DNA of 64,000 bases from Minisyncoccota bacterium (GTDB lineage Bacteria; Patescibacteriota; Minisyncoccia; UBA6257; JAGOQP01), in the NCBI GenBank assembly GCA_041661795.1, contig JBAZTS010000002.1, positions 36,263 to 100,262 on the forward strand. Reading direction: 5' to 3'. Of the stretch, positions 6,044-62,743 are shown piece by piece. The stretch's first letter is position 1. Every line of letters begins with the position of its first letter. A model generated the notes under the pieces. That model did not search any database. It was not told the DNA's origin and worked only from the letters and a program-made list of their open reading frames with translations. The position numbers and the translations under genes were made by a program.

Positions 6044-6769
6044 ATGTCTAAATTGGTGGTTTTAAATTGGAAGATGAATTTGCCCGATCTGCCGTCTTGG
6101 AGTGAAGCTTTGAAATTTAAAGGGAATAATAGAATTGTAGTTTGTCCTTCTTTCACTCATATAAATAAGCTAAGGAATTTATTAAAAGGAAAGGGGATAT
6201 ATATTGGGGCCCAAAACGTTTCTTATAAAGAAAATGGAGCTTTGACTGGAGAGGTGTCGGTTGAGATGTTAAAAGATGTCGGCGCTTCATATGCAATTAT
6301 AGGACATTCTGAAAGAAGATATGTTTTTGGAGAAACCGATGAAATTATAGCTAAGAAAGCAAAAGTTGTTCTTGAAGGCAGAATTACTCCTATTCTTTGT
6401 GTGGGAGAAACAAAGAAAATGACTAGAGAAAAATCCTGGAATTTTATCCGCTCTCAACTTCAAAAAGACTTATCTCTTACCCCTTACCCCTTACCCCTTA
6501 CCACTAGTTTAGTTGTGGCTTACGAGCCGGTCTGGTCTATTGGGGGAAATAAAAATATTGATGCGTCACATTCGGCTCATCTAATCGACAGAATAAGAGA
6601 GTTTCTATATACTAACTACAAGATGCGAGCCACCATCTTATACGGCGGAAGTGTTAATAGTAAAAATATTAAATCGCTTTTGTCTGTTGGTGAAATTGAC
6701 GGATTTTTGGTCGGGTCCGCCAGTTTAAAAAAAGAAGAAGTTAAAAAATTATTAAAATTAATAAATTAA
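6044..6769 (+). CDS. tpiA: Triose-phosphate isomerase with in-frame CCCCTTA-type triplet-repeat insertion (TPYPLPLTT)
   Basis: VVLNWKMN, IGHSERR, CVGE, AYEPVWSIG, YGGSV motifs; tandem cttacccc x3 at 6477-6508. Confidence 0.9.
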   Translation: MSKLVVLNWKMNLPDLPSWSEALKFKGNNRIVVCPSFTHINKLRNLLKGKGIYIGAQNVSYKENGALTGEVSVEMLKDVGASYAIIGHSERRYVFGETDEIIAKKAKVVLEGRITPILCVGETKKMTREKSWNFIRSQLQKDLSLTPYPLPLTTSLVVAYEPVWSIGGNKNIDASHSAHLIDRIREFLYTNYKMRATILYGGSVNSKNIKSLLSVGEIDGFLVGSASLKKEEVKKLLKLIN

Positions 6770-10787: not shown

Positions 10788-13350
10788 AATTTTTTCTCCT
10801 CTTGGTTCTTACCGTAAGAGAGTGGTTAAGATAAATGATTTTGAAAAAGAATTGTCTTTGCTCTCTGATGAGGAAATTAAGAATAAATCTCTTAAATTAA
10901 AAGAGGGTTTTTCCGGTGATCAAGAATATCTGGAAAACAACCTTGAATTGGCTTTTGCTTTAGTTAGAGAATCCTCCAAAAGAAATTTAAAGCAAAGACA
11001 TTTTGATGTCCAGCTTATTGGAGGTTTGGCAATGTCAGATGGAAAAATAGTTGAAATGGCAACGGGAGAAGGAAAAACTTTATCAGCCACACTGCCGGCT
11101 TATCTTTATGGAATCAGTGGAAAAGGAGTTCATGTTATTACTGTCAATGATTATCTTGCCAAAAGAGACGCTGTCTGGATGGGACAGATATATGATTTTT
11201 TAGGATTAACAGTTAGTTGTTTAGTTCATGACGGGGCGTATGTGTATGATTCTAAATATACAAATGAAATTCAAAGTGAAGAAGTGGCAGATGAAAAAAG
11301 AGATGTTGTTGGGGGTTTTAAAGTAATTCAAGAGTTTTTGAAACCAATATCAAGAAGAGAGGCCTATTTGTCAGATATAGTTTATGGAACTAACCACGAG
11401 TTTGGTTTTGATTATCTTAGAGATAATTTGGCTTACAATTCTAAAAATCAGGTCCAACGAGAGCATTATTTTGCTATTATTGACGAGGTAGACAGTATTT
11501 TAATAGATGAAGCCAGAACTCCTTTGATTATTTCAGCTCCAGACGTTGAAGCGGCTCAATACTACAAGGTTTTTGCCAAAGTAGTTAGTTCTTTGGAGAT
11601 TGAAAAGGATTATACAGTTGAAGAGAAAGATAGATCGGCCGTTATGACAGATGATGGTATTGCCAAGGTGGAAAAAATGCTGAATATAGAAAATATTTAT
11701 GATGCTCAATCTGCTTCCCTAGTTCACTATCTTGAAGAATCTTTAAAAGCCAAAGCTCTTTTTAGAAGAGACAGGCATTATGTTGTTAAATCCACTCCTT
11801 CTGGCGAGGGAGAAATTATTATAGTTGATGAATTTACCGGTCGCTTAATGCATGGAAGAAGGTATTCTGGGGGACTTCACCAGGCCATTGAAGCCAAAGA
11901 GGGGGTGAGAATTCAAGAGGAATCAAAAACGTTTGCTCAAATAACTATACAAAATTATTTTCGTCTTTATGAAAAAATAAGCGGAATGACGGGAACCGCC
12001 AAAACCAGCGCTGAAGAATTTAGGAAGGTTTACGGATTGGAAGTTGCTGTTATTCCATCCAATAAGCCCAGAGTAAGAAACGATAAATCGGATTTGATTT
12101 TCAAAACAAAAGAATCCAAATATCAGGCCATCGTGGGTGCTATAAAAGAAATGGTTGAAAAAGGCCAACCGGTTTTAGTTGGCACAACATCAATAGATGA
12201 GAACGAACTTTTATCCTCATATTTTTCCAATGCGGGAATAAAACATGAAGTGCTTAATGCCAAAAACCACGAAAGAGAGGGAGAAATAATTGCTCAGGCC
12301 GGAAGGTCGGAAGGCGTAACTTTAGCCACCAACATGGCTGGAAGAGGAGTGGATATAGTTTTAGGAGGAAATCCTCAAGATGTTTTGGATGCGCAAAAAG
12401 TTAAAGATGCCGGAGGACTTTTTGTTTTAGGAACTCAAAGAAATGAAGCCAGAAGAGTTGATAATCAGTTAAGAGGGCGCTCGGGAAGACAGGGGGATCC
12501 CGGAGAAACACAATTTTTTCTTTCTTTGGAGGATGATATGTTAAGAATTTTTGGAGGAGACAGAATCAAGTCAATGATGAATAGAATGAATATGCCCGAT
12601 GACGTTCCCATAGAATCATCTTTAATCGGAAAAGTAGTGGACGAAGCCCAAAAGAAAGTTGAAGGAATGAATTTTGATATCAGAAAACACCTGTTGGAAT
12701 ATGACGATGTTTTAAACAAACAAAGAAAAGCTGTTTATAGGAAAAGACAAAATATCTTAGAAAGGTTAGAAAAAGGGGAGTTGGAAGATGTTTTAAAAGA
12801 ATTGATTTTAGACGTCCTTAAATTTATTTTTTCAAATCCAACCAAGGATTTGGATTCTATAAAACAATGGTTTGAAGAAGTCGGGTTGGTTAGTAAAGAA
12901 GAAAAAGACAGTTTTAACGTTGAACAAGTGGAAAGCTCAATAAATCAGGGAGTGTTGGATGAATTTATTCTATCTAAAATAAATAACGTCTGTCAGGACC
13001 CGCAAGTTGGATTAAAAATACTTGGGTCCTTGGACGGGTTTTGGACTAATCACTTGGAAAATCTGGAGGCCTTATTGGAATCGGTAAGGATGAGAGCTTA
13101 TGGTCAAAAGGACCCACTGGTTGAATATAAAAGAGAAGGCCATCAGCTTTTTAAGGATTTAATAATTAACGCTCAAGTTTGGGTTGTCTCTAATGTTTTT
13201 AAGGAAATTCAAATCAATCCCAACAAAAATGTTTCTCAGAAATCTTTAGATACGATATACGATATACGAAATACGGATTCCAAATTAGGCCGTAATGACC
13301 CTTGTTATTGCGGAAGCGGTAAAAAATATAAAAAGTGCCATGGAAAATAA
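10765..13350 (+). CDS. secA: Preprotein translocase ATPase SecA
   Basis: 861 aa; MATGEGKTL Walker A; DEAD-like motor; C-terminal Zn finger CYCGSGKKYKKCHG. Confidence 0.95.
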   Translation: MMTSILDKIFSPLGSYRKRVVKINDFEKELSLLSDEEIKNKSLKLKEGFSGDQEYLENNLELAFALVRESSKRNLKQRHFDVQLIGGLAMSDGKIVEMATGEGKTLSATLPAYLYGISGKGVHVITVNDYLAKRDAVWMGQIYDFLGLTVSCLVHDGAYVYDSKYTNEIQSEEVADEKRDVVGGFKVIQEFLKPISRREAYLSDIVYGTNHEFGFDYLRDNLAYNSKNQVQREHYFAIIDEVDSILIDEARTPLIISAPDVEAAQYYKVFAKVVSSLEIEKDYTVEEKDRSAVMTDDGIAKVEKMLNIENIYDAQSASLVHYLEESLKAKALFRRDRHYVVKSTPSGEGEIIIVDEFTGRLMHGRRYSGGLHQAIEAKEGVRIQEESKTFAQITIQNYFRLYEKISGMTGTAKTSAEEFRKVYGLEVAVIPSNKPRVRNDKSDLIFKTKESKYQAIVGAIKEMVEKGQPVLVGTTSIDENELLSSYFSNAGIKHEVLNAKNHEREGEIIAQAGRSEGVTLATNMAGRGVDIVLGGNPQDVLDAQKVKDAGGLFVLGTQRNEARRVDNQLRGRSGRQGDPGETQFFLSLEDDMLRIFGGDRIKSMMNRMNMPDDVPIESSLIGKVVDEAQKKVEGMNFDIRKHLLEYDDVLNKQRKAVYRKRQNILERLEKGELEDVLKELILDVLKFIFSNPTKDLDSIKQWFEEVGLVSKEEKDSFNVEQVESSINQGVLDEFILSKINNVCQDPQVGLKILGSLDGFWTNHLENLEALLESVRMRAYGQKDPLVEYKREGHQLFKDLIINAQVWVVSNVFKEIQINPNKNVSQKSLDTIYDIRNTDSKLGRNDPCYCGSGKKYKKCHGK

Positions 13351-16012: not shown

Positions 16013-18334
16013 ATGTTAAGCGACAATATACGCAATTTTTGTATTATAGCCCACATAGATCACGGCAAATCTACATTGGCTGATAGGTTGCTTGAAATTA
16101 CAGGAACTATAGATAAGAGGAAGATGAAGAACCAATATCTTGATCAATTGGAATTGGAAAGAGAAAGAGGGATAACTATCAAAATGGCTCCTGTCCGCAT
16201 GCTCTATGCGCTGACTAACGCCGACTCTACGCCGACTGACGCAGACAATAAGAAATTAGATAATGCGAGTAGTCAATTATTGTATGAAGATTTAACCTAT
16301 AAAATAAGAGGAGTGTTGTTTGGCGTAAAGAAAAAAATAGGACTTGGTCATAAAGAAGTTATTTACCAAAAGGCCATAGAAGAAGAATTGACAAAAGAGA
16401 ACATACCTTTTGAAAAAGAAAAAATAATTAATATAGAACTTGATAATAAAAGTCTTGGCGTATACAGACCAGATTTTGTTATTGATAATAAAATTATATT
16501 AGAGATAAAATCTTTGCCTTTTATTGGAGATGTTGAGAAAAGGCAAGTTTGGACATATCTTAAGGGATCAGAATATAAATTGGCTTTATTAGTCAATTTC
16601 AATTCTAGAGATATTGATATTAAAAGAGTTGTGTATGATACAGCCAGAGAAATTCAGCGTGAGTCAGCGTTTAGTCAGCGTAAGTCGGCGCAGGTTGAGC
16701 AGTATGTGCTCAACCTGATAGACACTCCCGGGCATCCGGATTTTGGTTATGAAGTTTCCAGAGCTTTGGAAGCGGTTGAGGGGGCAATTTTGTTGGTTGA
16801 TGGAATGCAAGGAATACAAGCACAAACGTTATCTAATTTTTATGCTGCCAAAAAAGCCGGACTTACAATTATTGGCGCGGTTAACAAAGTGGATTTAAAT
16901 ATTCCTGACATAGATAAAGTTGTAATGGAAACAGCGGAGCTAATTGGTTGTGGGCCAGAACAAATTCATAAAATATCAGGAAGAACAGGAGAGGGAGTTC
17001 AACAGCTTTTGGGAGCAGTTATTCTTAGAATCCTACCTCCAAAAGCTGTAATTCCCAATTTCCAATTCCCAATTTCCAATTTTGGAAGGGCATTAATATT
17101 TGATTCTTTTTATGACGACCACAAAGGAATTATAGCCAGTGTCAGGGTATTTAATGGAGAATTTAATCAGTTTGATGATGTGGTTTTGGTGGCTGCTAAA
17201 GAAAAATTTAAAACAAAAGAAGTCGGATATTTTTCTCCGACCCTAAATCCTTCAAAAAGAATTTTAGAGGGAGAGATAGGTTATTTGGTTACCGGGATAA
17301 GAGACCCGTATAAAATAAAAATCGGTGACACGGTAATAGGTCACAAATCACAAGTCGCGCATCACGAATCGTATGCTTTGCCCGGATACAAAGAACCAAA
17401 GCCGGTGGTGTTTGTTTCTTTCTATCCAGACAATCCGGATGAATATGATGATTTAAAAAAATCTTTGGAAAGATTAAAGCTTAACGACTCTTCTTTTGCT
17501 TTTGAGCCGGATTTAAATGAAGTGTTGGGCAGGGGATTTAAAGGAGGATTTTTGGGAAAGCTTCATTTTGAAATAATTTCTCAGCGTCTTGAAAGAGAGT
17601 TTGGAATAAAAACAATCACATCTTTTCCTTCGGTCAGTTATAAAATAAAAACTTCTTCCAAACACTTAGCTCATCTAAAATTGGACGAAGATGGATTTTT
17701 CATAGCGTATAATCCCAAAGATATTCCTGAAGAATTTGAAAAGATATTAGAACCGATGATAAAAGTTGAAATTGTTTCATCACAAAAAATATTGGGAACA
17801 GTTTTGGGACTTAAAGATGCTTTTCGTTGGGAATACATAGAGACCCAACAATTGGGAGAAAAAGTTATTATTAAAACCAGAATGCCCTTGGCTGAGCTTA
17901 TCTCGGATTTTGACGACCAGTTAAAATCGGTTTCAGGTGGATTTGCTTCTTTTAGTTATGAAGAAGACGGCTATCAACAGGGCGATTTAATTAGGATGGA
18001 TATTTTAGTGGCAGACGAAATAGTTCCTGGGCTTTCTAGAATTCTTCCCAAAAAAGACATAGAATATCCGGCCAGGAAAATGGTTGTTCGCTTAAAGGAA
18101 GTATTGCCTCATCAGCAATTTACCCAAGCTATTCAAGCCAAAGTCGGAGGGAGAATTATAGCCAGAGAAACTATTGCGGCTTTAAGAAAAGATGTGACCG
18201 GATATCTTTATGGAGGAGACAGAACAAGAAAAATGAAACTTTGGAAAAAACAGCAAAGAGGCAAAAAGAAACTTCTTTCTATGGCCAAAGTGACCATATC
18301 TCCAGAAAACTTCAAGAAACTTCTTTCAAAATAA
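16013..18334 (+). CDS. lepA: Elongation factor 4 (LepA) carrying an in-frame ~167-aa GxxExxY-domain insertion in the G domain
   Basis: AHIDHGKST ... [insertion] ... DTPGHPDF, NKVDL, LepA C-terminal domain; 773 aa vs ~600 typical. Confidence 0.9.
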   Translation: MLSDNIRNFCIIAHIDHGKSTLADRLLEITGTIDKRKMKNQYLDQLELERERGITIKMAPVRMLYALTNADSTPTDADNKKLDNASSQLLYEDLTYKIRGVLFGVKKKIGLGHKEVIYQKAIEEELTKENIPFEKEKIINIELDNKSLGVYRPDFVIDNKIILEIKSLPFIGDVEKRQVWTYLKGSEYKLALLVNFNSRDIDIKRVVYDTAREIQRESAFSQRKSAQVEQYVLNLIDTPGHPDFGYEVSRALEAVEGAILLVDGMQGIQAQTLSNFYAAKKAGLTIIGAVNKVDLNIPDIDKVVMETAELIGCGPEQIHKISGRTGEGVQQLLGAVILRILPPKAVIPNFQFPISNFGRALIFDSFYDDHKGIIASVRVFNGEFNQFDDVVLVAAKEKFKTKEVGYFSPTLNPSKRILEGEIGYLVTGIRDPYKIKIGDTVIGHKSQVAHHESYALPGYKEPKPVVFVSFYPDNPDEYDDLKKSLERLKLNDSSFAFEPDLNEVLGRGFKGGFLGKLHFEIISQRLEREFGIKTITSFPSVSYKIKTSSKHLAHLKLDEDGFFIAYNPKDIPEEFEKILEPMIKVEIVSSQKILGTVLGLKDAFRWEYIETQQLGEKVIIKTRMPLAELISDFDDQLKSVSGGFASFSYEEDGYQQGDLIRMDILVADEIVPGLSRILPKKDIEYPARKMVVRLKEVLPHQQFTQAIQAKVGGRIIARETIAALRKDVTGYLYGGDRTRKMKLWKKQQRGKKKLLSMAKVTISPENFKKLLSK
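16202..16702 (+). mobile_element. In-frame insertion within lepA encoding a complete GxxExxY-family PD-(D/E)XK domain, flanked by GC-rich AGTC(A/G)GCG-octamer inverted repeats
   Basis: DLTYKIRG...GHKEVIY...PDFVIDNKIILEIKS...LALLVNFN matches GxxExxY family; arms 16218-16262 and 16655-16700. Confidence 0.55.
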
Positions 18335-19374: not shown

Positions 19375-19385
19375 TATATAATTTG

Positions 19386-19456
19386 AGCGGGATACGGGAA
19401 TCGAACCCGCGCTTCAACCTTGGGAAGGTCGTGTATTACCACTGTACTAATCCCGC
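19386..19456 (-). tRNA. tRNA-Gly (anticodon CCC)
   Basis: GCGGGAT acceptor, anticodon arm CGACC-TTCCCAA-GGTTG, T-arm GGGTTCGATTCCC, discriminator U; no encoded CCA. Confidence 0.85.
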
Positions 19457-19477: not shown

Positions 19478-20668
19478 ATGAAATATCTTAGAAATGTCAA
19501 AATAGAAAAGATAAGAAACAAAACCTGCGTTTTAAGGTTGGGTTTGGATATAAAGGATGGTGAGTTAAAAAATTCGTTGAGAGTTATAAAATCTATCCCG
19601 ACACTCAAATTTCTATTAAAAAACGACTGCAAAGTAGTGATAATTTCACATCGAGGTAGACCTCAAGAGGGGAAAGAGGAAAGTGAAAAGAGGAAAGTGA
19701 AAAGAGAAGAAACTTTAAGATCATTTGTGGAGATTTTTGAAAAACTACTAAAAACAAAGATTAGTTTTGATGACTCTTTTGATTTTAAAAAGATGAGTGA
19801 AAAGATTAAAAAACTTCACTCAAAATCTATAGTTATTGTTGAAAATATAAGATTAGTAAAAGGAGAAAAGGATGATAACGATAAGCTAGGGAGAGAATTG
19901 GCTTCTTTGGGAAATTTTTATGTGAATGATGATTTTTCTACCAGTCACAGAAAAAACGCTTCTTTATGTGCGATAACAAAATTCACACCTTCTTATGTTG
20001 GCCTGCAGTTTGAAGAAGAAATAAAGAATTTAGACAAAGTTCTTAAAAATCAAAGGAAGCCAGTTGTTCTGATTGTAGGGGGAGTTAAATTGTCGGACAA
20101 AGTTGGCGTAATAAAAAATTTCTTAAACAAGGCAGATTATGTTTTGACCGGTGGGGGAGTTTCCAATACTTTCTTTGCTGCTAAAGAAATTCCAGTTGGT
20201 GATTCGTTAATTGATAAAGAAATGATGAAAATGGCAAAAACCTTACTTAAATCAAAAAAAATCATTTTACCCCAAGACGTTAGGATAAAAGGAAAATCTA
20301 TATTGGATATAGGGGATAAAACCATTGAAGAATATAAAAAAATAATAGAAAAAGCAGGGACTATTATTTGGGGTGGACCGTTAGGATATTTTGAGGACAA
20401 AAAATTTGCCAAAGGAACATTTGAAATAGCCAGAGCGATTTTAAAATCAAAAGCTTTTTGTGTTATTGGCGGCGGAGAAACTACAGTCGCCTTTCTTAAG
20501 GCAACTCGCGGACTTACACGGACTTCACGCAGAACTACGCGGAAAACAGTCAGCGTCAGTCAGCGTTCAGTCGGCGTTGGTCAGCGCTTGTTTCTGTCTA
20601 CTGGTGGAGGGGCAATGTTGGAATATCTAGCAGGTAAAAAATTACCGGCTTTGGAAGCGCTTAAATAA
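19478..20668 (+). CDS. pgk: Phosphoglycerate kinase with two in-frame low-complexity insertions
   Basis: VIISHRGRP, FSTSHR, GGGVSNTF, STGGGAMLEYLAGKKLPALEAL; insertions at 19670-19715 and 20511-20588. Confidence 0.9.
   Translation: MKYLRNVKIEKIRNKTCVLRLGLDIKDGELKNSLRVIKSIPTLKFLLKNDCKVVIISHRGRPQEGKEESEKRKVKREETLRSFVEIFEKLLKTKISFDDSFDFKKMSEKIKKLHSKSIVIVENIRLVKGEKDDNDKLGRELASLGNFYVNDDFSTSHRKNASLCAITKFTPSYVGLQFEEEIKNLDKVLKNQRKPVVLIVGGVKLSDKVGVIKNFLNKADYVLTGGGVSNTFFAAKEIPVGDSLIDKEMMKMAKTLLKSKKIILPQDVRIKGKSILDIGDKTIEEYKKIIEKAGTIIWGGPLGYFEDKKFAKGTFEIARAILKSKAFCVIGGGETTVAFLKATRGLTRTSRRTTRKTVSVSQRSVGVGQRLFLSTGGGAMLEYLAGKKLPALEALK
20511..20588 (+). repeat. In-frame GC-rich AGTCAGCG-octamer repeat insertion in pgk (encodes TRTSRRTTRKTVSVSQRSVGVGQR)
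   Basis: cagtcagcgtcagtcagcgttcagtcggcgttggtcagcg; same octamer family as lepA insertion arms. Confidence 0.55.
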
Positions 20669-21522: not shown

Positions 21523-21600
21523 CTTGTATATAGTAGCTCGTATCTTGTATAAGAGAAGATTGTATGCCAACTACTAGCTACAAGATACTAGATACAATTT
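21523..21600. repeat. Intergenic repeat element, inverted copy of 2246-2320
   Basis: See 2246-2320. Confidence 0.45.
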
Positions 21601-22067: not shown

Positions 22068-22073
22068 CTTAAA

Positions 22074-22428
22074 AGATAAGTGAGTGATTGCCCTGACATT
22101 TGTTGGGGAGGAAAGTCCGGACTCCCATCTCCGACGTAACGTCGGAGTAAACGTATTCGCTAACAGCGAACTATCGCAAGATAAGAGGTGCGAACAGAGA
22201 CGAGTCCTAATGGAAACATTAGGGGTGAAACGGTCCCGACGCCTATTTCGGGTTAGGGACTCCGACATCCGCAAGGATCGTCGGAGCTAAATCCTTGCGG
22301 GGTGCAAGACCGTATCCGCCCAGGGCGGGTGAGTCGCTTGAACCTGAGAGTAATTGAAGGTCCAGACAAATAATCACTATCCCGACGTAACGTCGGGACA
22401 CAGAATCCGGCTTATAGCTTATCTAAAC
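22074..22428 (+). ncRNA. rnpB: RNase P RNA (bacterial type A)
   Basis: GGAGGAAAGTCCGGACTCC (P4 5' strand), AGGGGTGAAACGGT, ACAGAATCCGGCTTATAG (P4 3' strand), P1 pairing agataag/cttatct; GC-rich versus surroundings. Confidence 0.85.
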
Positions 22429-22500
22429 ATATCAAGAATCTCTCCTTAACGGGGGGATTTTTGATTGATTTATTAAGGGTTTTTTGATACTTTTAACAAG

Positions 22501-38045: not shown

Positions 38046-38168
38046 TATTTTGTGTAATTTTTATATCTATCATTTCTTGCTACAGCAACCAGATTTATAT
38101 ATAACCGGTACTTAATATGTAATTTTTTGTATATAGTATTTGGTATACGGTATACGATATTCGGTATT

Positions 38169-39272
38169 CTATTTTAGATTCTCTATTATAGCTATCTCAA
38201 AGGGCACCAAGGGGAAAGGATTGTATTTCATTTGGGAGTAGGCGGTGATGAGCGCTTTTATAAGTTTTATCTGCTCGTCCGTATCTATTTTAGCCGAATG
38301 TTTTTTTATTTCTTTTATTTGGCTTTCGGCCAATTCCTTTTCAAATATCTTTTCCAGTTCCGGATTAAGATGTAAAGAAAGAACCCTTCTTAAATATTCT
38401 GTCAGATCTTTGTTAAATTGAAAAAGATTGTATCCCTGACTGTTTATTTCGTATAAAAATTCCAGCGACTTTTGTAAGTCCTTTTTTATGACCAAATCGG
38501 CCATTTTTATTGTTTTTAGAAAATCAACTTTTCCCAAGATGCTTTCCACGTATTCAACGGTAATATTCTTGCCCTTCATGGAAACAATCTGGTCAAAAAG
38601 AGATTCGGCATCTCTTAAACTTCCTTCAGCTAAAAAGGCAATCATTTCCAAAGCTTCTTTTTCGTATTCTACTTTTTCTTCTTTGGCGATAAATGAAAGT
38701 TTTTTTATAATCTCCTGTAGTGTCAGCTTTCTAAAATGAAATCTCTGGGTTCGGGAAACAATAGTGGGAGGGAGCTTGTCGTATTCGGTGGTGGCTAATA
38801 TAAAAACGGCATGGGCTGGCGGTTCTTCTAAAGTTTTTAAAAGAGCGTTAAATGCCTGTGGAGTGAGCATGTGAACTTCATCTATGATAAAGATTTTGTA
38901 TTTAAGATAAGAGGGGAGTGTTTTTATGTTTTCTTTGAGATTTCTTATTTCATCTATTCCTCGGTTGGAAGCGGCGTCAATTTCAACGACATCCAAAGCT
39001 CTGCCTTCTTCAACTTGTAAACAGGCGTGACATTCTCCACAGGGCTCTCCTTGCTTGGCAAAGTTTTCGTCCTCTTGTCTTTTCTGGCAGTTAATTATTT
39101 TGGAAAAGATTCTGGCGATAGTTGTTTTGCCGGTTCCTCTTGAACCGTAGAAAAGATAGGCATGAGAAATTTTACCTTCCTTAACTGAATTTTGAAGTAT
39201 GGTAACCGTATTTTCCTGACCGTAAATATCAGCAAGTTTTTTTGGTCGGTATTTTCTATAAATAGCTAACAT
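38169..39272 (-). CDS. dnaX: DNA polymerase III subunit gamma/tau (short form)
   Basis: GSRGTGKTT Walker A, Zn module CGECHAC, DEVHML box. Confidence 0.9.
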   Translation of the reverse strand: MLAIYRKYRPKKLADIYGQENTVTILQNSVKEGKISHAYLFYGSRGTGKTTIARIFSKIINCQKRQEDENFAKQGEPCGECHACLQVEEGRALDVVEIDAASNRGIDEIRNLKENIKTLPSYLKYKIFIIDEVHMLTPQAFNALLKTLEEPPAHAVFILATTEYDKLPPTIVSRTQRFHFRKLTLQEIIKKLSFIAKEEKVEYEKEALEMIAFLAEGSLRDAESLFDQIVSMKGKNITVEYVESILGKVDFLKTIKMADLVIKKDLQKSLEFLYEINSQGYNLFQFNKDLTEYLRRVLSLHLNPELEKIFEKELAESQIKEIKKHSAKIDTDEQIKLIKALITAYSQMKYNPFPLVPFEIAIIENLK

Positions 39273-39278
39273 ATCAAT

Positions 39279-39309
<31 letters not shown>

Positions 39310-39334
39310 TAAAGAGCTATGAAATAAAAAAAGC

Positions 39335-39900
39335 CCGCCGGTGTCTTCCGAGGAAGTCCTGGCGGGGTGGAACAGGTGGTGCGACCTTAGCTCACTCGGT
39401 GCTGTCGAGTTCGCTCGCCCGATATACTCTCCGGGTGATACGAGAGCTCGAATCTGCCGAGACGTGACGCGTGGTCACTTTTTGCTAAGGTTTTTTGGGG
39501 TGCTGCTCCTCTTCCTGTTCGGTACTTTCTAAGAACGGTTCCCACACCGTTCTCGCCGGCGAGCTTAGCTCGCGCAGGGTAGAGGCGCCTCCTAAAGGAG
39601 GCAAAACATGAGTACAAATTCGGAATTGGATTTTTGTGAGTTTCCGGACTCACTATCTCGTTTGGTGCACCTCCCGAGAAGTCCTTTTCCTTCCACTTAT
39701 TATTGGGCCAGTTTGAGATCAGCGGTGGACACTCAAACTGTTTGCGTGCTTTCACCGAGCTTGCCGGATTTACTCGGATCTTTGGTGAGATGGCGCAACC
39801 CCACAGTTTTGACCTCCCTCAGCTGCGCGCGCAACTGAGTTGTCAGCTCACCTAGTGACAGAGGCCCCCTTTTTGACCGTTTTTTCTTCTTGGTCCGGAA
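39335..39900. ncRNA. GC-rich structured non-coding locus (one or two ncRNAs; minus-strand terminator at 39335-39378); identity unresolved, SRP RNA candidate by position upstream of dnaX
   Basis: GC content far above flanks, no protein-like ORF, multiple stems (gtttgag..ctcaaac, ccgag..ctcgg), ccccgccagg...ccggcgggc + T7 on minus strand. Confidence 0.35.
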
Positions 39901-51133: not shown

Positions 51134-51178
51134 TTATAATAATCATATACCGAATACAGTATACCGTATACCGCAAAA

Positions 51179-54962: not shown

Positions 54963-55361
54963 ATGAGTGGGATCGCTTGGTTTTTCGAGGTGTTCGCTCT
55001 GCTGTTTTTCGTGGGGACTCTGGGCGTTGCTTTCATCGGACGCCGCATCCTCAAGGCGGAGCAGGAGTCGTCGGTTCTGATGTCTTTCCTCCAGATCTGC
55101 AGTGGAGCGCTCTTCATCTTCTACGTTTTCGGACTGGGTCAACTCATGGCTCTGTCTGGACTGGAAGGTGCAAGGGCGCCCCGGTGGCTGATTCCGGGCA
55201 CCTACATCACTCTCACCATCTTCAGCGCGTTGACTCGGCTGGCTCTTCCAAGGTGGGGCAGTGACAACAAAGCGATGCAACTCTGGAGTGTCGTCAGCGT
55301 CCTGACGTTCCTACTCGGCACGTTCTGCCTCGGGGCGTACTCGTCCAACTACTTCGAGTAG
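54963..55361 (+). CDS. GC-anomalous (foreign-looking) 4-TM membrane protein, unknown function
   Basis: 132 aa, GC3-rich codons in an AT-rich genome, AGGGGA RBS, own terminator. Confidence 0.6.
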   Translation: MSGIAWFFEVFALLFFVGTLGVAFIGRRILKAEQESSVLMSFLQICSGALFIFYVFGLGQLMALSGLEGARAPRWLIPGTYITLTIFSALTRLALPRWGSDNKAMQLWSVVSVLTFLLGTFCLGAYSSNYFE

Positions 55362-55385
55362 GTCTCCTTCTTCAGCTCTTCAACT

Positions 55386-55421
55386 GGCGGCGTCTCTCAC
55401 GAGGCGCCGCACTGCTTTTTA
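55386..55421. terminator. Bidirectional terminator (gcggcgtctc tcac gaggcgccgc + T-run)
   Basis: GC stem between GC-rich gene and uvrC 3' end. Confidence 0.6.
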
Positions 55422-55467
55422 TATGGTTATAAAATTTATATAAATTTCCCCGTCAATATAAATCCGC

Positions 55468-57306: not shown

Positions 57307-57417
57307 AGGGAGTATATATGATTAAGAATATTAAATAATTATCATAGAGTTATTATGATTATAGATTGATTTTATCGTTTTAATTAAAGAGTGCCTTATA
57401 AATTAGCACGGACCGCT

Positions 57418-57570
57418 TTATGGGCGGTCCGGGATGGGTGGAGCGGGTGCGGGCTTGACCACTTTGGCCACGAGGCCGATTAATATGGTCAGCATTGAAA
57501 CGGGTACTACGGTGGCGATGATGACGGACGATTCCACCACCACCAGAGACCACTTGACTAGGTAGTGCAT
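57418..57570 (-). CDS. GC-rich tiny membrane protein (50 aa, MHYLVKWSLVVVESSVIIATVVPVSMLTILIGLVAKVVKPAPAPPIPDRP)
   Basis: AAAGGAGG SD; overlaps upstream ORF stop; followed by hairpin cggaccgc...gcggtccg. Confidence 0.4.
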   Translation of the reverse strand: MHYLVKWSLVVVESSVIIATVVPVSMLTILIGLVAKVVKPAPAPPIPDRP

Positions 57571-57689
57571 TCAACCTCCTTTCTTCTGAGAATCTTGGTG
57601 ATCCACAGATAGAGGTTGTATCCTGTTTGAATAACGTGGGCCATCTTTTGGCCCAGTATTGTCGTCCGATGAAACGTTGTTGTAGACAT
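57558..57689 (-). CDS. GC-rich tiny protein (43 aa, MSTTTFHRTTILGQKMAHVIQTGYNLYLWITKILRRKEVECTT)
   Basis: AAAGGAGACGTG-ATG SD; same frame as C-terminal part of listed ORF 57558-57860. Confidence 0.35.
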   Translation of the reverse strand: MSTTTFHRTTILGQKMAHVIQTGYNLYLWITKILRRKEVECTT

Positions 57690-57703
57690 CACGTCTCCTT
57701 TGG

Positions 57704-57949
57704 TTAGGCGATGGCGCCGGGGTATTCTTCGGAGATCTTCTCGATCTCTTTTTCCTCTTTCTTCACTTGGTCTGTGAGCACAAGGAAGAAAAAGATGATG
57801 GCCATGATTCCCACAAGAGTGGCAAAGGCCCATGAAAAGCTCTTGGGGAGTTGGAACCATCGTGATAAGTGATATCCTCCAAAAGTGAGAATTACCACGG
57901 CCACGGTCGCTCCAACTTTACGGAGCAAGTTGAGTAGTCCCGGGAACAT
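57704..57949 (-). CDS. GC-rich small membrane protein (81 aa, 2 TM)
   Basis: AGGAGG SD 6 nt upstream; hydrophobic helices. Confidence 0.5.
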   Translation of the reverse strand: MFPGLLNLLRKVGATVAVVILTFGGYHLSRWFQLPKSFSWAFATLVGIMAIIFFFLVLTDQVKKEEKEIEKISEEYPGAIA

Positions 57950-58193
57950 TACTCTCCTCCTTTTTGGTGTACATCTTTCGAAGTTTCTCCTGTAGAGCGT
58001 TGAGCCCCGTGAAGACCAGGGCTCCGGTCAGAAACCCGATACAAGCCAACGATCCTCGGATCTCCAATCCTGGAGGCAGTGGAACTCGGTCTGCCCATAG
58101 GACCGTGAAGAAACAGGAAGCAGCAGTTGAAAGGCCAACGAAAGTGAACCAAACCACTCTTGCGATCAACTCCAGAACTTTTCCGATTTTCAT
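57918..58193 (-). CDS. GC-rich small membrane protein (91 aa, 2-3 TM)
   Basis: GGAGGA SD 8 nt upstream; hydrophobic helices. Confidence 0.5.
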   Translation of the reverse strand: MKIGKVLELIARVVWFTFVGLSTAASCFFTVLWADRVPLPPGLEIRGSLACIGFLTGALVFTGLNALQEKLRKMYTKKEESNVPGTTQLAP

Positions 58194-61193: not shown

Positions 61194-61411
61194 AGATAAT
61201 AATCATCGTAAAACCAAATAAAAAAGAAAATAAGGTTGTGAAAATAGGAGAGAACATTTTTGAAATTTATACGAATCAACCGGCTAAAGAAAATAAAGCC
61301 AATTTGGATATTATTCAACAAATGTCCAAGTATTTTAAAGTATCAAAATCAAAGGTTTCTATATCTTCCGGATTAAAGTCAAAGAAGAAAATTTTGGAAA
61401 TAAATATATAA
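61190..61411 (+). CDS. DUF167 (YggU/UPF0235) family protein
   Basis: VKPN.K.....I......I....P..E.KAN.....Q..K.F.VSKS.V.I.SGL.SK.K.L.I. Confidence 0.65.
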   Translation: MKIIIIVKPNKKENKVVKIGENIFEIYTNQPAKENKANLDIIQQMSKYFKVSKSKVSISSGLKSKKKILEINI

Positions 61412-61443
61412 AAAAAGGGGGCTCCCGGTGTTGCTGGGAGCCC
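61411..61443 (-). terminator. Minus-strand terminator (gggctcccagcaacaccgggagccc + T7)
   Basis: Perfect stem followed by TTTTTTT on minus strand, ending GC-rich island. Confidence 0.5.
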
Positions 61444-61960
61444 AAAGTGCGGTAAGGAGGTCAATGTACGATGCGGTGCCTGCCGTGCGTCGCTTCGCTC
61501 GTTCGGGTCTTGGTGGTTCAGATCAGGGCCAGTCGTGCCCGAAAACTTAACTTTCTGGCCCATTGCTTCTCGGCACGCATGGTTTCTCCTTGCATGGATT
61601 TTTGGTCCACGCAGCTCTGCCCTCAGCGCTTGACGGTGGCCTCGTCGTTGGTGCGGTGGTTGTTCTGACGCTGTTGCATGGGATTTCTCCTCGCGTGAAC
61701 GTCGTCGGTTGTTGGTGCTAGCTATGGCTCAAGTCAAGCTTTCTTTTCGGTGAGCTTGACGAGCAGTGCTAGCGCCTGTTCTGGGTTTCGTTTTTTATCG
61801 GTATAACCTTCACAAGGTTATACCAGGGTTTCCTTCCTGATTGGCGGTCAAGAAGGTTGTTTAATCATCCAGCATTGTCCTAACTAACGGAACGGCGGTT
61901 CGACGTCCACGTGCATCGCTTTCCTCCTTATGTAGTTTACTTATTTCAGGATAAAACAAA
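61444..61960. other. GC-rich non-coding island (candidate structured RNA or degraded foreign DNA) in convergent intergenic region
   Basis: GC content well above flanks, stops in most frames, hairpins (ggtataacc..ggttatacc), possible minus-strand promoter TTGACT near 61950 and terminator at 61411-61443. Confidence 0.3.
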
Positions 61961-62693: not shown

Positions 62694-62743
62694 AAGATTA
62701 GTATATAGTATTTAGTAGTTAGTATATAGTATAATAGAAACAA

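What the first reader, a model, noticed from the sequence alone, without database searches (positions are those of the whole stretch)
20511..20588. Same AGTCAGCG-octamer GC-rich repeat forms a 24-aa in-frame insertion in pgk
PGK normally reads ...GGGDT.AA...GL-ADKMSH-ISTGGGASLE. Here a GC-rich stretch (cagtcagcgtcagtcagcgttcagtcggcgttggtcagcg, preceded by cgcggacttacacggacttcacgcagaactacgcgg) replaces the short linker with TRTSRRTTRKTVSVSQRSVGVGQR. The octamer family is the one that builds the inverted arms around the lepA GxxExxY insertion. This looks like a solo or MITE-like remnant of the same element, tolerated in a surface loop of an essential enzyme.
Basis: seen in the sequence. Interest (0 to 1): 0.7.

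Follow-up and report, generated by a model that had tools for sequence, protein, structure and literature searches.

The report
Miniature mobile repeat read through inside pgk
An 80-base GC-rich repeat sitting in frame inside the glycolytic gene pgk is a miniature copy of an apparently undescribed family of selfish DNA elements, linked to a small nuclease gene, that occupies essential protein genes and ribosomal RNA genes of ultra-small (CPR) bacteria without breaking them.

Summary
It is read through as 27 residues (R344-R370) in a loop that AlphaFold2 models as disordered.

The block has two inverted 38-nt arms. Each arm is four heptamers (CGCNGAM / KTCNGCG) spaced 3-4-3 nt, and 4 nt separate the arms. 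The arms flanking the in-frame GxxExxY (PDDEXK_3) nuclease insert in lepA, 4 kb upstream, have the same architecture.

A 4-heptamer pattern expected less than once by chance in 596 Gb matched at least 119 stretches, mostly Patescibacteria. About half lie in frame in housekeeping genes (IF-2, LepA, aminoacyl-tRNA synthetases, DnaK, ATP synthase, RecG, PGK). Many others lie in 16S/23S rRNA and RNase P RNA. Long forms carry only PDDEXK_3 between the arms.

The same pgk loop is occupied in many CPR lineages, in at least two reading frames, with decayed and one-armed versions. The arms are not complementary outside the motif, which suggests phased protein-binding sites rather than a hairpin.

Best reading: a non-autonomous, MITE-like miniature of a nuclease-associated mobile element, analogous to Rickettsia palindromic elements. 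Mobilisation by PDDEXK_3 is inferred, not shown. I found no published description.

The parts
19478..20668 (+). pgk coding sequence (396 aa), intact, host of the element
   Evidence: ORF. Pfam PGK E 1.2e-92. Matches solved PGKs. AF2 mean pLDDT 90.1.
20507..20586 (+). 80-nt heptamer-array element, read through as R344-R370 (RGLTRTSRRTTRKTVSVSQRSVGVGQR)
   Evidence: GC 0.59 against 0.33 for the rest of the gene. pLDDT below 50 for residues 354-366.
20507..20544 (+). Left arm: CGCGGAC tta CACGGAC ttca CGCAGAA cta CGCGGAA (four CGCNGAM units, one degenerate)
   Evidence: Matches the 4-unit pattern on the minus strand with 1 mismatch. Same unit types as the pgk left arms of L001, L003 and L056.
20545..20548 (+). 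4-nt centre (AACA) between the arms
   Evidence: A 4-nt loop is the commonest length in the family.
20549..20586 (+). Right arm: GTCAGCG tca GTCAGCG ttca GTCGGCG ttg GTCAGCG (four KTCNGCG units)
   Evidence: Exact match to the 4-unit pattern. Tandem-repeat period 10-11.
16013..18334 (+). lepA coding sequence (773 aa) carrying the long form of the same element in frame
   Evidence: Pfam GTP_EFTU, LepA_C, EFG_C plus PDDEXK_3.
16209..16246 (+). Left arm of the lepA long element: CGCTGAC taa CGCCGAC tcta CGCCGAC tga CGCAGAC
   Evidence: Exact pattern match.
16289..16630 (+). GxxExxY / PDDEXK_3 nuclease domain (LepA aa 93-206), no start or stop codon of its own, PD...ExK motif intact
16653..16690 (+). 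Right arm of the lepA long element: TTCAGCG tga GTCAGCG ttta GTCAGCG taa GTCGGCG
   Evidence: Exact pattern match.

Best explanation
Window 20507-20586 is a non-autonomous miniature copy of a mobile-element family found mainly in Patescibacteria (CPR).

A family member has two inverted 38-nt arms. Each arm is four copies of the motif (A)CGCNGAM (KTCNGCG(T) on the other strand), at 10/11/10-nt start-to-start spacing, about one DNA helical turn. Long forms carry one gene between the arms, a roughly 125-aa PD-(D/E)XK nuclease of the GxxExxY/PDDEXK_3 family. Short forms, as in pgk, have only about 4 nt between the arms.

Most copies that persist in the sampled loci lie where they do no harm. These are loops of conserved proteins, where the copy is in frame, stop-free and simply translated. 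Others lie inside 16S/23S rRNA and RNase P RNA genes.

In this pgk the element adds 27 residues to a loop modelled as disordered, between the GGGET and STGGGAM motifs, and leaves the enzyme intact.

Shown here:
- the element's anatomy and its membership of the family;
- in-frame read-through;
- family distribution and host genes;
- the association of the arms with PDDEXK_3;
- near-identical copies at different sites within single genomes;
- lack of arm complementarity.

Inferred:
- the arms are phased binding sites for the nuclease;
- the nuclease supplied in trans (for example from the lepA copy) moves or copies the short forms at the DNA level;
- the pgk loop has been invaded more than once.
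For: - **Same architecture in pgk and lepA.** No other such arm exists in 64 kb, and shuffles give 0.
- **Wide occurrence.** The 4-unit pattern has a uniform-composition expectation of about 0.07 in 596 Gb (my own calculation).
- **Typical layout.** Minus arm, about 4 nt, plus arm, roughly 80 nt in all. Six of the seven arm pairs separated by 250-900 nt read through in frame, with 274-406 nt between the arms. All that were checked carry PDDEXK_3 between the arms.
- **Free-standing long form.** One copy has its own start and stop codon between canonical arms.
- **In-frame copies.** 71 of 145 arrays in loci below 60% GC lie in stop-free spans of at least 200 codons. Hosts include ATP synthase, IF-2, LepA, EF-G-type GTPases, class I aaRS, DnaK, UvrB/RecG, MnmA and PGM.
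- **Copies in RNA genes.** Others sit in 16S rRNA, 23S rRNA and RNase P RNA genes.
- **Recent multiplication.** Copies 93-99% identical lie at different sites of one genome. Examples are two in one RNase P RNA gene with different flanks, two in one 16S gene, and three contigs of one MAG.
- **Orthologous pgk inserts.** Window, L001, L003, L056, L123 and L124 keep the heptamers but not the spacers. They use at least two reading frames and different junctions. L125 is decayed and L126 retains one arm.
- **Scattered on the PGK tree.** 28 long-loop PGKs need 23 state changes, against 25.5 in shuffles.
- **Nuclease phylogeny.** In-frame PDDEXK_3 copies form one clade. The window's lepA copy is closer to copies in recG and glycosyltransferase genes (69-71%) than to most lepA copies (55-65%).
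- **Nuclease likely active.** Catalytic D/E/K are conserved, and the fold is closest to Cas4 and restriction endonucleases.
- **PGK intact.** Mean pLDDT is 90.1, with the insert at 45-72.
Against: - No target-site duplication or conserved target is visible at 16 coding-sequence junctions. A classical cut-and-paste transposase is therefore not supported.
- No PGK with a full-length PDDEXK_3 in this loop appeared among the best 120 hits of a chimeric query.
- Nearest PGK relatives are only about 53% identical. No presence/absence pair exists to define the insertion event in this lineage.
- Heptamers are conserved at an orthologous site despite about 48% host identity. This could also mean host-level selection rather than repeated invasion.
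- A test for co-converted flanks was not convincing (0.143 against 0.116 excess identity).
- The NJ tree is nearly star-like, so 'scattered' is weak evidence.
- Binding or cleavage of the arms by PDDEXK_3 is untested.
- There are no transcript or protein data for the read-through.
Confidence: 0.7

Rival explanations
1. Single ancient insertion, now domesticated. The element entered pgk once in an early Paceibacteria ancestor and is inherited vertically. The heptamers stay conserved because the host uses them, for example as binding sites on DNA or mRNA for a regulatory or nucleoid protein.
For: The insertion point and similar left-arm unit types are shared by window, L001 and L003. The units CGCAGAA cta CGCGGAA, including the spacer, are identical in window and L003. 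Heptamers are conserved while spacers and host synonymous sites are not.
Against: Orthologous inserts differ in junction and reading frame: TRGxTR in one group, TRNYAE in another. Decayed and one-armed versions exist (L125, L126). Bearers are scattered over the PGK tree. Most PGKs lack the insert. The same element sits in unrelated genes and in rRNA, with near-identical copies within genomes.
Confidence: 0.12
2. Intervening sequence removed after transcription. The arms mark the element for RNA-level excision or processing, as in RNase III-processed rRNA intervening sequences or archaeal bulge-helix-bulge introns. The PD-(D/E)XK protein would act as the RNA endonuclease, so mature PGK lacks the insert.
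Against: - Every copy inside a long ORF is in frame and stop-free. This includes long forms in which the nuclease ORF has lost its start and stop codons and is fused to the host gene on both sides (LepA in many lineages, RecG, glycosyltransferases, DHFR, LeuRS). Efficient splicing would not require that.
- The arms do not base-pair outside the motif. Watson-Crick pairing is 4-35% at the N positions and near random in the spacers.
- The pgk fold has a z-score of only -2.1.
- The top structural neighbours are DNA nucleases.
- No Rfam family matches the element.
Confidence: 0.05
3. Native low-complexity linker produced by local replication slippage. It would be unrelated to the lepA arms except through shared mutational bias.
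For: The genome is rich in short tandem repeats, some inside genes including pgk itself (19671-19706) and lepA (17050-17082).
Against: The fixed 7-3-7-4-7-3-7 inverted architecture recurs in unrelated genes and genomes, far beyond chance. It is associated with PDDEXK_3. GC is 0.59 against 0.33 for the host gene. Most PGK orthologues have a 15-19-aa loop.
Confidence: 0.03

Closest known systems
Rickettsia palindromic elements (RPEs)
   Same: Both are short repeated elements found in frame inside unrelated, often essential, protein-coding genes. They are translated as extra peptide segments at positions compatible with the fold (PMC10969869). Both occur in small genomes.
   Different: RPEs are about 100-150 bp, and each family encodes a conserved peptide. 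No associated enzyme gene is known for them (my own knowledge). Here the element is 80 nt and built from phased heptamers. It is read in different frames, so there is no conserved peptide. It also lies in rRNA and RNase P RNA genes and has a long form carrying a PD-(D/E)XK nuclease. Sequence relatedness to RPEs was not tested.
[quoted passage not shown]
   Same: Small size, no enzyme gene, multiple copies, inverted terminal arms shared with a longer gene-carrying relative, and occasional in-frame fusions with host ORFs (PMC10969869).
   Different: No target-site duplication was seen. The arms are arrays of a degenerate motif rather than complementary terminal inverted repeats. The partner gene is a small PD-(D/E)XK nuclease, not a known transposase.
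Intervening sequences (IVS) of bacterial 23S rRNA, some encoding a small ORF (S23p / four-helix-bundle protein)
   Same: Extra segments with inverted ends inside rRNA genes, sometimes carrying a small ORF of unknown function (my own knowledge). Members of this family sit in 16S and 23S rRNA genes.
   Different: Classical IVS form long base-paired stems cut by RNase III, and they are not reported in protein genes. Here the arms pair poorly, and the same element occurs in frame in coding sequences.
Homing endonuclease genes and inteins
   Same: A nuclease ORF lies in frame within highly conserved host genes. The same site is occupied across distant lineages: the lepA loop before DTPGH, the equivalent IF-2 loop, the recG DEQH region and the pgk loop.
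   Different: No Hint/intein domain was detected. The flanks are read in variable frames, so there are no conserved splice-junction residues. The nuclease phylogeny does not follow the insertion site. Conserved arms are a feature of transposon ends, not of homing elements.
Cyanobacterial short dispersed and heptameric repeats (STRR, SDR elements)
   Same: Very small mobile repeats, often linked to heptamer repeats (my own knowledge, Elhai et al. 2008). This window also carries many 7-nt tandem repeats.
   Different: Different sequence and architecture, no nuclease partner described, and mostly intergenic.

Membership tests
Heptamer-array / PDDEXK_3 element family (defined here) | Two inverted arms, each four KTCNGCG/CGCNGAM units spaced 3-4-3 nt | tested here: met
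   Right arm is an exact match and left arm has 1 mismatch. Shuffles give 0.
Heptamer-array / PDDEXK_3 element family (defined here) | A long form with the same arms carries a PDDEXK_3 gene | tested here: met
   lepA 16209-16690 in this window. L083, L084, L096, L119, L047 and L130 elsewhere.
MITE | Small (under about 300 bp), no transposase gene | tested here: met
   80 nt, with 4 nt between the arms.
MITE | Terminal inverted repeats | tested here: inconclusive
   The arms are inverted arrays of a shared motif. Outside the motif, complementarity is at random level.
MITE | Target-site duplication | tested here: not met
   No direct repeat flanks the 16 in-frame copies or the pgk copy. Erosion cannot be excluded.
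MITE | Multiple copies per genome, with evidence of recent spread | tested here: met
   Two loci in this 64-kb window. Copies 93-99% identical lie at different sites in other genomes.
MITE | Mobilised in trans by the enzyme of an autonomous relative | not testable with these tools
   Needs biochemistry or genetics. Only the association between arms and PDDEXK_3 is shown.
Rickettsia palindromic elements | In-frame insertion in protein genes at sites the structure tolerates | tested here: met
Rickettsia palindromic elements | Sequence membership of an RPE family, or a conserved encoded peptide | tested here: not met
   Orthologous and paralogous copies are read in all three phases and give different peptides. 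No direct comparison with RPE consensus sequences was possible.
Intein | Hint domain and conserved splice-junction residues | tested here: not met
   Pfam scans of LepA and PGK show no intein/Hint domain. Junction residues vary.
rRNA-type intervening sequence | Long base-paired stem that is processed out of the RNA | tested here: inconclusive
   Family members do lie in rRNA genes. Arm pairing is poor, the pgk hairpin has z -2.1, and processing cannot be tested.
GxxExxY / PDDEXK_3 protein family (the lepA cargo) | Match above the curated cut-off with PD-(D/E)xK residues present | tested here: met
   PF13366, 101 bits against a cut-off of 22. TIGR04256, 109 bits against a cut-off of 35. D/E/K conserved.

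The most novel reading that the evidence does not exclude
The GxxExxY/PDDEXK_3 nuclease and its phased-heptamer arms form a previously undescribed class of selfish element. The class colonises conserved sites of essential protein genes and of rRNA and RNase P RNA genes across Patescibacteria. It persists by being read through or structurally tolerated, not by splicing. The pgk block is one of its miniature derivatives. If so, a large orphan protein family would gain its first functional context, and RPE-like 'protein-coding palindromes' would gain a candidate enzymatic driver.
Probability: 0.5. Interest if true: 0.8.

Novelty: new variant of a known kind. Interest (0 to 1): 0.72.

Why it matters
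In-frame selfish repeats in essential genes have been a curiosity of Rickettsia for 25 years, with no known mechanism. This family behaves the same way but has three useful properties. Its architecture is simple and searchable. It has a broad host range in the CPR. It has a candidate enzyme, a PD-(D/E)XK nuclease of the large GxxExxY family, whose function is unknown.

That makes several questions directly testable:
- How are such elements mobilised?
- Why do the same loops of conserved proteins (PGK, LepA, IF-2, RecG) and rRNA genes get hit repeatedly?
- How much of the odd length variation of CPR proteins and rRNAs is due to these elements?

There are practical consequences too. The elements inflate and distort alignments of marker genes (pgk, infB, lepA, 16S, 23S) used for CPR phylogeny. 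They also lead annotators to label host genes 'GxxExxY protein, partial'.

Tried and rejected
- **Hairpin or RNA-structure reading.** The pgk fold is -34.7 kcal/mol with z only -2.1. Across 26 canonical elements, the arms are complementary only at the motif positions. Rejected as the conserved feature.
- **Known RNA family.** Rfam shows nothing at the element, even at E up to 1.
- **Full-length element in PGK.** A chimeric PGK::PDDEXK_3 query returned no protein with both domains among the best 120. It did reveal PDDEXK_3 in frame in RecG, glycosyltransferases, DHFR and a DEAD helicase.
- **Target-site duplication or shared target motif.** None seen.
- **Co-conversion of pgk flanks among element bearers.** The excess flank identity was too small to interpret.
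- **Intrinsic 'ORF-friendliness'.** Elements have 2.75 of 6 frames open, against 2.13 for shuffles. Coding and non-coding copies do not differ. The design is therefore not strongly adapted to translation.
- **Phage carriage.** Only 3 hits in 2.9 million viral contigs.
- **Genes split out of frame by an element.** Among non-read-through copies outside rRNA there is no clear case. A few candidates (L034, L074, L081, L109) were not resolved.
- **Exact boundaries in 16S rRNA.** The elements lie inside larger lineage-specific expansions, so no clean boundary was obtained.
- **Literature.** Searches for GxxExxY, PDDEXK_3, and CPR in-frame or intervening elements found no description. Steczkiewicz et al. 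2012 list PDDEXK_3 as function unknown.
- **One failed call.** An Rfam call on 18 loci failed and was repeated in smaller batches.

Full report
**1. The observation**

The window is a 36% GC stretch of a Candidatus Paceibacterota (CPR) genome. The ORF at 19478-20668 is a full-length phosphoglycerate kinase (Pfam PGK, E 1.2e-92).

Against a solved PGK, query residues 341-368 face only six residues of the structure. Among 120 CPR PGKs, the loop between GGGET and STGGGAM is usually 15-19 aa; here it is 38 aa. The octamer AGTCAGCG occurs five times in 64 kb against 0.55 expected, and only in pgk and at the two ends of the lepA insert.

**2. Anatomy**

The block is more regular than an 'octamer repeat'.

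- Positions 20507-20544 read CGCGGAC tta CACGGAC ttca CGCAGAA cta CGCGGAA.
- Four bases follow (AACA).
- Positions 20549-20586 read GTCAGCG tca GTCAGCG ttca GTCGGCG ttg GTCAGCG.

Each arm is four heptamers with 3-4-3-nt spacers, giving 10/11/10-nt phasing, and the two arms are inverted. The in-frame GxxExxY/PDDEXK_3 insert of lepA is flanked by arms of identical architecture at 16209-16246 and 16653-16690. The PDDEXK_3 domain scores PF13366 E 7e-29 and TIGR04256 E 1.3e-31.

The pattern KTCNGCG-N3-KTCNGCG-N4-KTCNGCG-N3-KTCNGCG, allowing two mismatches, finds exactly these four arms and none in 100 shuffles. The element is 59% GC in a 33% GC gene. It is translated as R344-R370.

**3. The element belongs to a large family**

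For uniform base composition I estimate about 0.07 chance matches of the exact 4-unit pattern in the 596-Gb genome collection. By record title these are overwhelmingly Patescibacteria: Saccharibacteria and many Paceibacteria/Parcubacteria lineages, plus Magasanik-, Doudna-, Berkel- and Moraniibacteria.

A few come from MAGs labelled Acidobacteriota, Bacteroidetes or Gammaproteobacteria. About ten lie in genomes above 60% GC and are probably unrelated.

The usual layout is minus arm, about 4 nt, plus arm, roughly 80 nt in all. A second class has 274-406 nt between the arms. All those checked contain PDDEXK_3. One free-standing long form, with its own start and stop codons between canonical arms, lies intergenically beside PrgI/TraC-like genes. 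Viral contigs hardly carry the pattern: 3 hits.

**4. Where the copies sit**

In loci below 60% GC, 71 of 145 arrays lie inside stop-free spans of at least 200 codons. The host ORFs are housekeeping genes:

- ATP synthase alpha/beta
- IF-2, LepA and EF-G-type GTPases
- class I aminoacyl-tRNA synthetases
- DnaK
- UvrB and RecG
- MnmA
- phosphoglycerate mutase
- ABC ATPases

Many of the remaining copies are inside RNA genes. These include 23S rRNA genes, 16S rRNA genes, and one RNase P RNA gene that carries two copies.

All three codon phases are used, so no particular peptide is being selected.

**5. Evidence for mobility**

The most similar element pairs are copies within one genome at different sites:

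- two copies 96% identical, with different flanks, in one RNase P RNA gene;
- two copies 97% identical in one 16S gene;
- copies 85-93% identical on three contigs of one MAG.

The median identity over all pairs is 70%.

In-frame PDDEXK_3 copies form one clade, distinct from the free-standing genes of Flavobacteria and others. This clade includes copies in lepA, recG, glycosyltransferases, DHFR and LeuRS. Within it, the window's lepA copy is closest to copies in recG and glycosyltransferase genes (69-71%), not to most lepA copies (55-65%). The nuclease has therefore changed host gene over time.

**6. The pgk site across lineages**

DNA of seven further PGK genes shows the same element at the same loop.

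- L001, L003 and the window share the junction GCN ACT|CGC...GCG|N YTN TTY and read the left arm as TRGxTR.
- L056 and L123 have GCG GCA A|CGC...GCG|TTG TTT and read it in another frame, as TRNYAE.
- L124 has a third junction.
- L125 is heavily decayed.
- L126 keeps only the right arm.

Heptamers are conserved and spacers are not, although the host proteins are only about 45-50% identical. On a neighbour-joining tree of 120 PGKs, the 28 long-loop sequences need 23 state changes, against 25.5 for shuffled labels.

I read this as repeated occupation of one permissive or preferred site, followed by decay. The tree is close to a star, however, and one ancient insertion with host-level constraint is not excluded. 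A test for co-converted flanks was inconclusive.

The same recurrence holds at other sites:

- The lepA loop just before DTPGH carries the long form in many lineages.
- The structurally equivalent loop of IF-2 carries short forms in five genomes.
- Three RecG proteins share one site.

**7. What the arms are**

Across 26 canonical elements, the two arms are complementary only at the defining motif positions and at the A/T next to each unit. The central N pairs in 4-35% of cases, and the spacers pair at random level. The pgk element folds only modestly better than shuffles (z -2.1), and no Rfam family matches it.

A motif conserved at helical phasing, with free spacers and a free central base, is what arrays of protein-binding sites look like. 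Transposon ends and iterons are examples (my own knowledge). I therefore infer DNA-level recognition, most plausibly by the only cargo ever seen between the arms.

**8. Consequences for PGK**

The AlphaFold2 model of the window's PGK is confident (mean pLDDT 90.1, pTM 0.87). The exceptions are a segment at about residues 61-80 (10-residue block means 62 and 72) and the insert itself. Ten-residue block means over residues 341-370 are 72, 45 and 50, and residues 354-366 fall below 50. The model shows a helix extension running into a disordered excursion between strand 327-331 and strand 371-373. All residues invariant in the PGK alignment are present.

The element is not strongly 'designed' for translation. 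It has 2.75 of 6 frames open, against 2.13 for shuffles, and coding and non-coding copies do not differ. Selection presumably just retains insertions that happen to be open and harmless.

The long forms are a stronger argument for read-through. In LepA, RecG, glycosyltransferases, DHFR and LeuRS, the nuclease ORF has no start or stop codon of its own and is in frame with the host on both sides. Splicing would not require this.

**9. Comparison with known systems**

The closest analogue in behaviour is the Rickettsia palindromic element, which inserts in frame into many unrelated genes (PMC10969869). The short/long relationship is MITE-like. The copies in rRNA genes recall rRNA intervening sequences. 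The recurrent occupation of conserved sites by an in-frame nuclease ORF recalls homing endonucleases and inteins.

It fails defining tests for each:

- no conserved peptide (RPE);
- no target-site duplication and no truly complementary terminal repeats (MITE);
- no Hint domain (intein);
- poor stem pairing (intervening sequence).

I found no description of this family in the searchable literature. I rate it a new variant of a known kind.

**10. Verdict**

The mechanism (trans-mobilisation by PDDEXK_3 binding the phased heptamers) is inferred, not shown.

Noticed in passing
window 6476-6502, 13250-13275, 17050-17082, 19671-19706, 38136-38169, 39279-39311, 51146-51173, 62699-62733: Eight arrays of 7-nt tandem repeats, 3.7-5.1 copies each, with a different unit at each site. 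Four lie inside ORFs. One is in pgk itself (GGAAAGA, encoding EGKEESEKRKVKREE). One is in lepA (AATTTCC, encoding IPNFQFPISNF). The peptide 'NFQFPIS' also fills the PGK loop of other CPR PGKs (P0033, P0038, P0083). This suggests a second, AT-rich kind of in-frame repeat.
   Followed up: partly
window 17340-17375: lepA has a heptamer-like run, TCACAAA TCACAAG TCGCGCA TCACGAA (GHKSQVAHHES). In another genome (L041 5296-5375), lepA carries a full heptamer-array element at this site. The run may be a remnant or a different small insert.
   Followed up: no
window 21523-21600 and 2290-2317: The intergenic stretch after the DHH-family gene has palindromic cttgtat/tacaag repeats. It contains tagtagctcgtat, the reverse complement of the 14-nt tandem unit ATACGAGCTACTAA at 2290-2317. 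This is a separate dispersed intergenic repeat.
   Followed up: no
window 39326-39870, 54986-55426, 57401-58111, 61411-61932: Four islands of 50-55% GC in a 36% GC genome, each 0.4-0.7 kb and mostly without long ORFs. They are unrelated to each other by blastn. Three of the four were scanned against Rfam at E up to 0.1 with no match; the first was covered only by the gathering-threshold scan. Their nature is unknown.
   Followed up: partly
P0131 (lepA fragment from another CPR genome): After the PDDEXK_3 insert, the right-arm peptide and the host target are duplicated...QRNSAQVEGVILNLID DSARTSALSALSQRNSAQIEDYVLNLIDTPGH. This could be the footprint of a second insertion or of imprecise repair.
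   Followed up: no
PGK homologues P0012/P0021 vs P0033/P0044; P0039/P0054/P0058: Other insert types occur in CPR PGKs. An 18-aa block, SRHLFKTNLEGGIPPAAG, is present or absent between close relatives at the same loop. A block SAPRSKGRGGGPRGLA lies just before GGGET. Their DNA was not examined.
   Followed up: no
loci L004-L122 (one-armed arrays inside ORFs): When only one arm passes the strict motif test, the coding strand carries the CGCNGAM orientation 39 times and KTCNGCG 8 times, by my tally of the listings. This strand bias is unexplained.
   Followed up: no
L003 12763-12821; L056 4644-4672: The RNase H gene next to pgk in L003 carries a one-armed array, CGCGGAC x4 plus further units, read as ADLRGLGADLRGQNTDLRG. 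The PGK of L056 carries a second array about 100 codons upstream of the main element.
   Followed up: partly
L036 6755-7393: An RNase P RNA gene of a Saccharibacteria MAG spans 639 nt, against a 367-position Rfam model. It holds two 80-nt elements, 96% identical, at different positions.
   Followed up: partly
window 19385-19456 (-) and 22072-22430 (+): tRNA-Gly(CCC) lies directly upstream of pgk, and an RNase P RNA (class A, 138.8 bits) lies downstream of the RNase H gene. Neither carries an element in this genome. The pgk, DHH-phosphoesterase, RNase H gene order is conserved in L001 and L003.
   Followed up: yes
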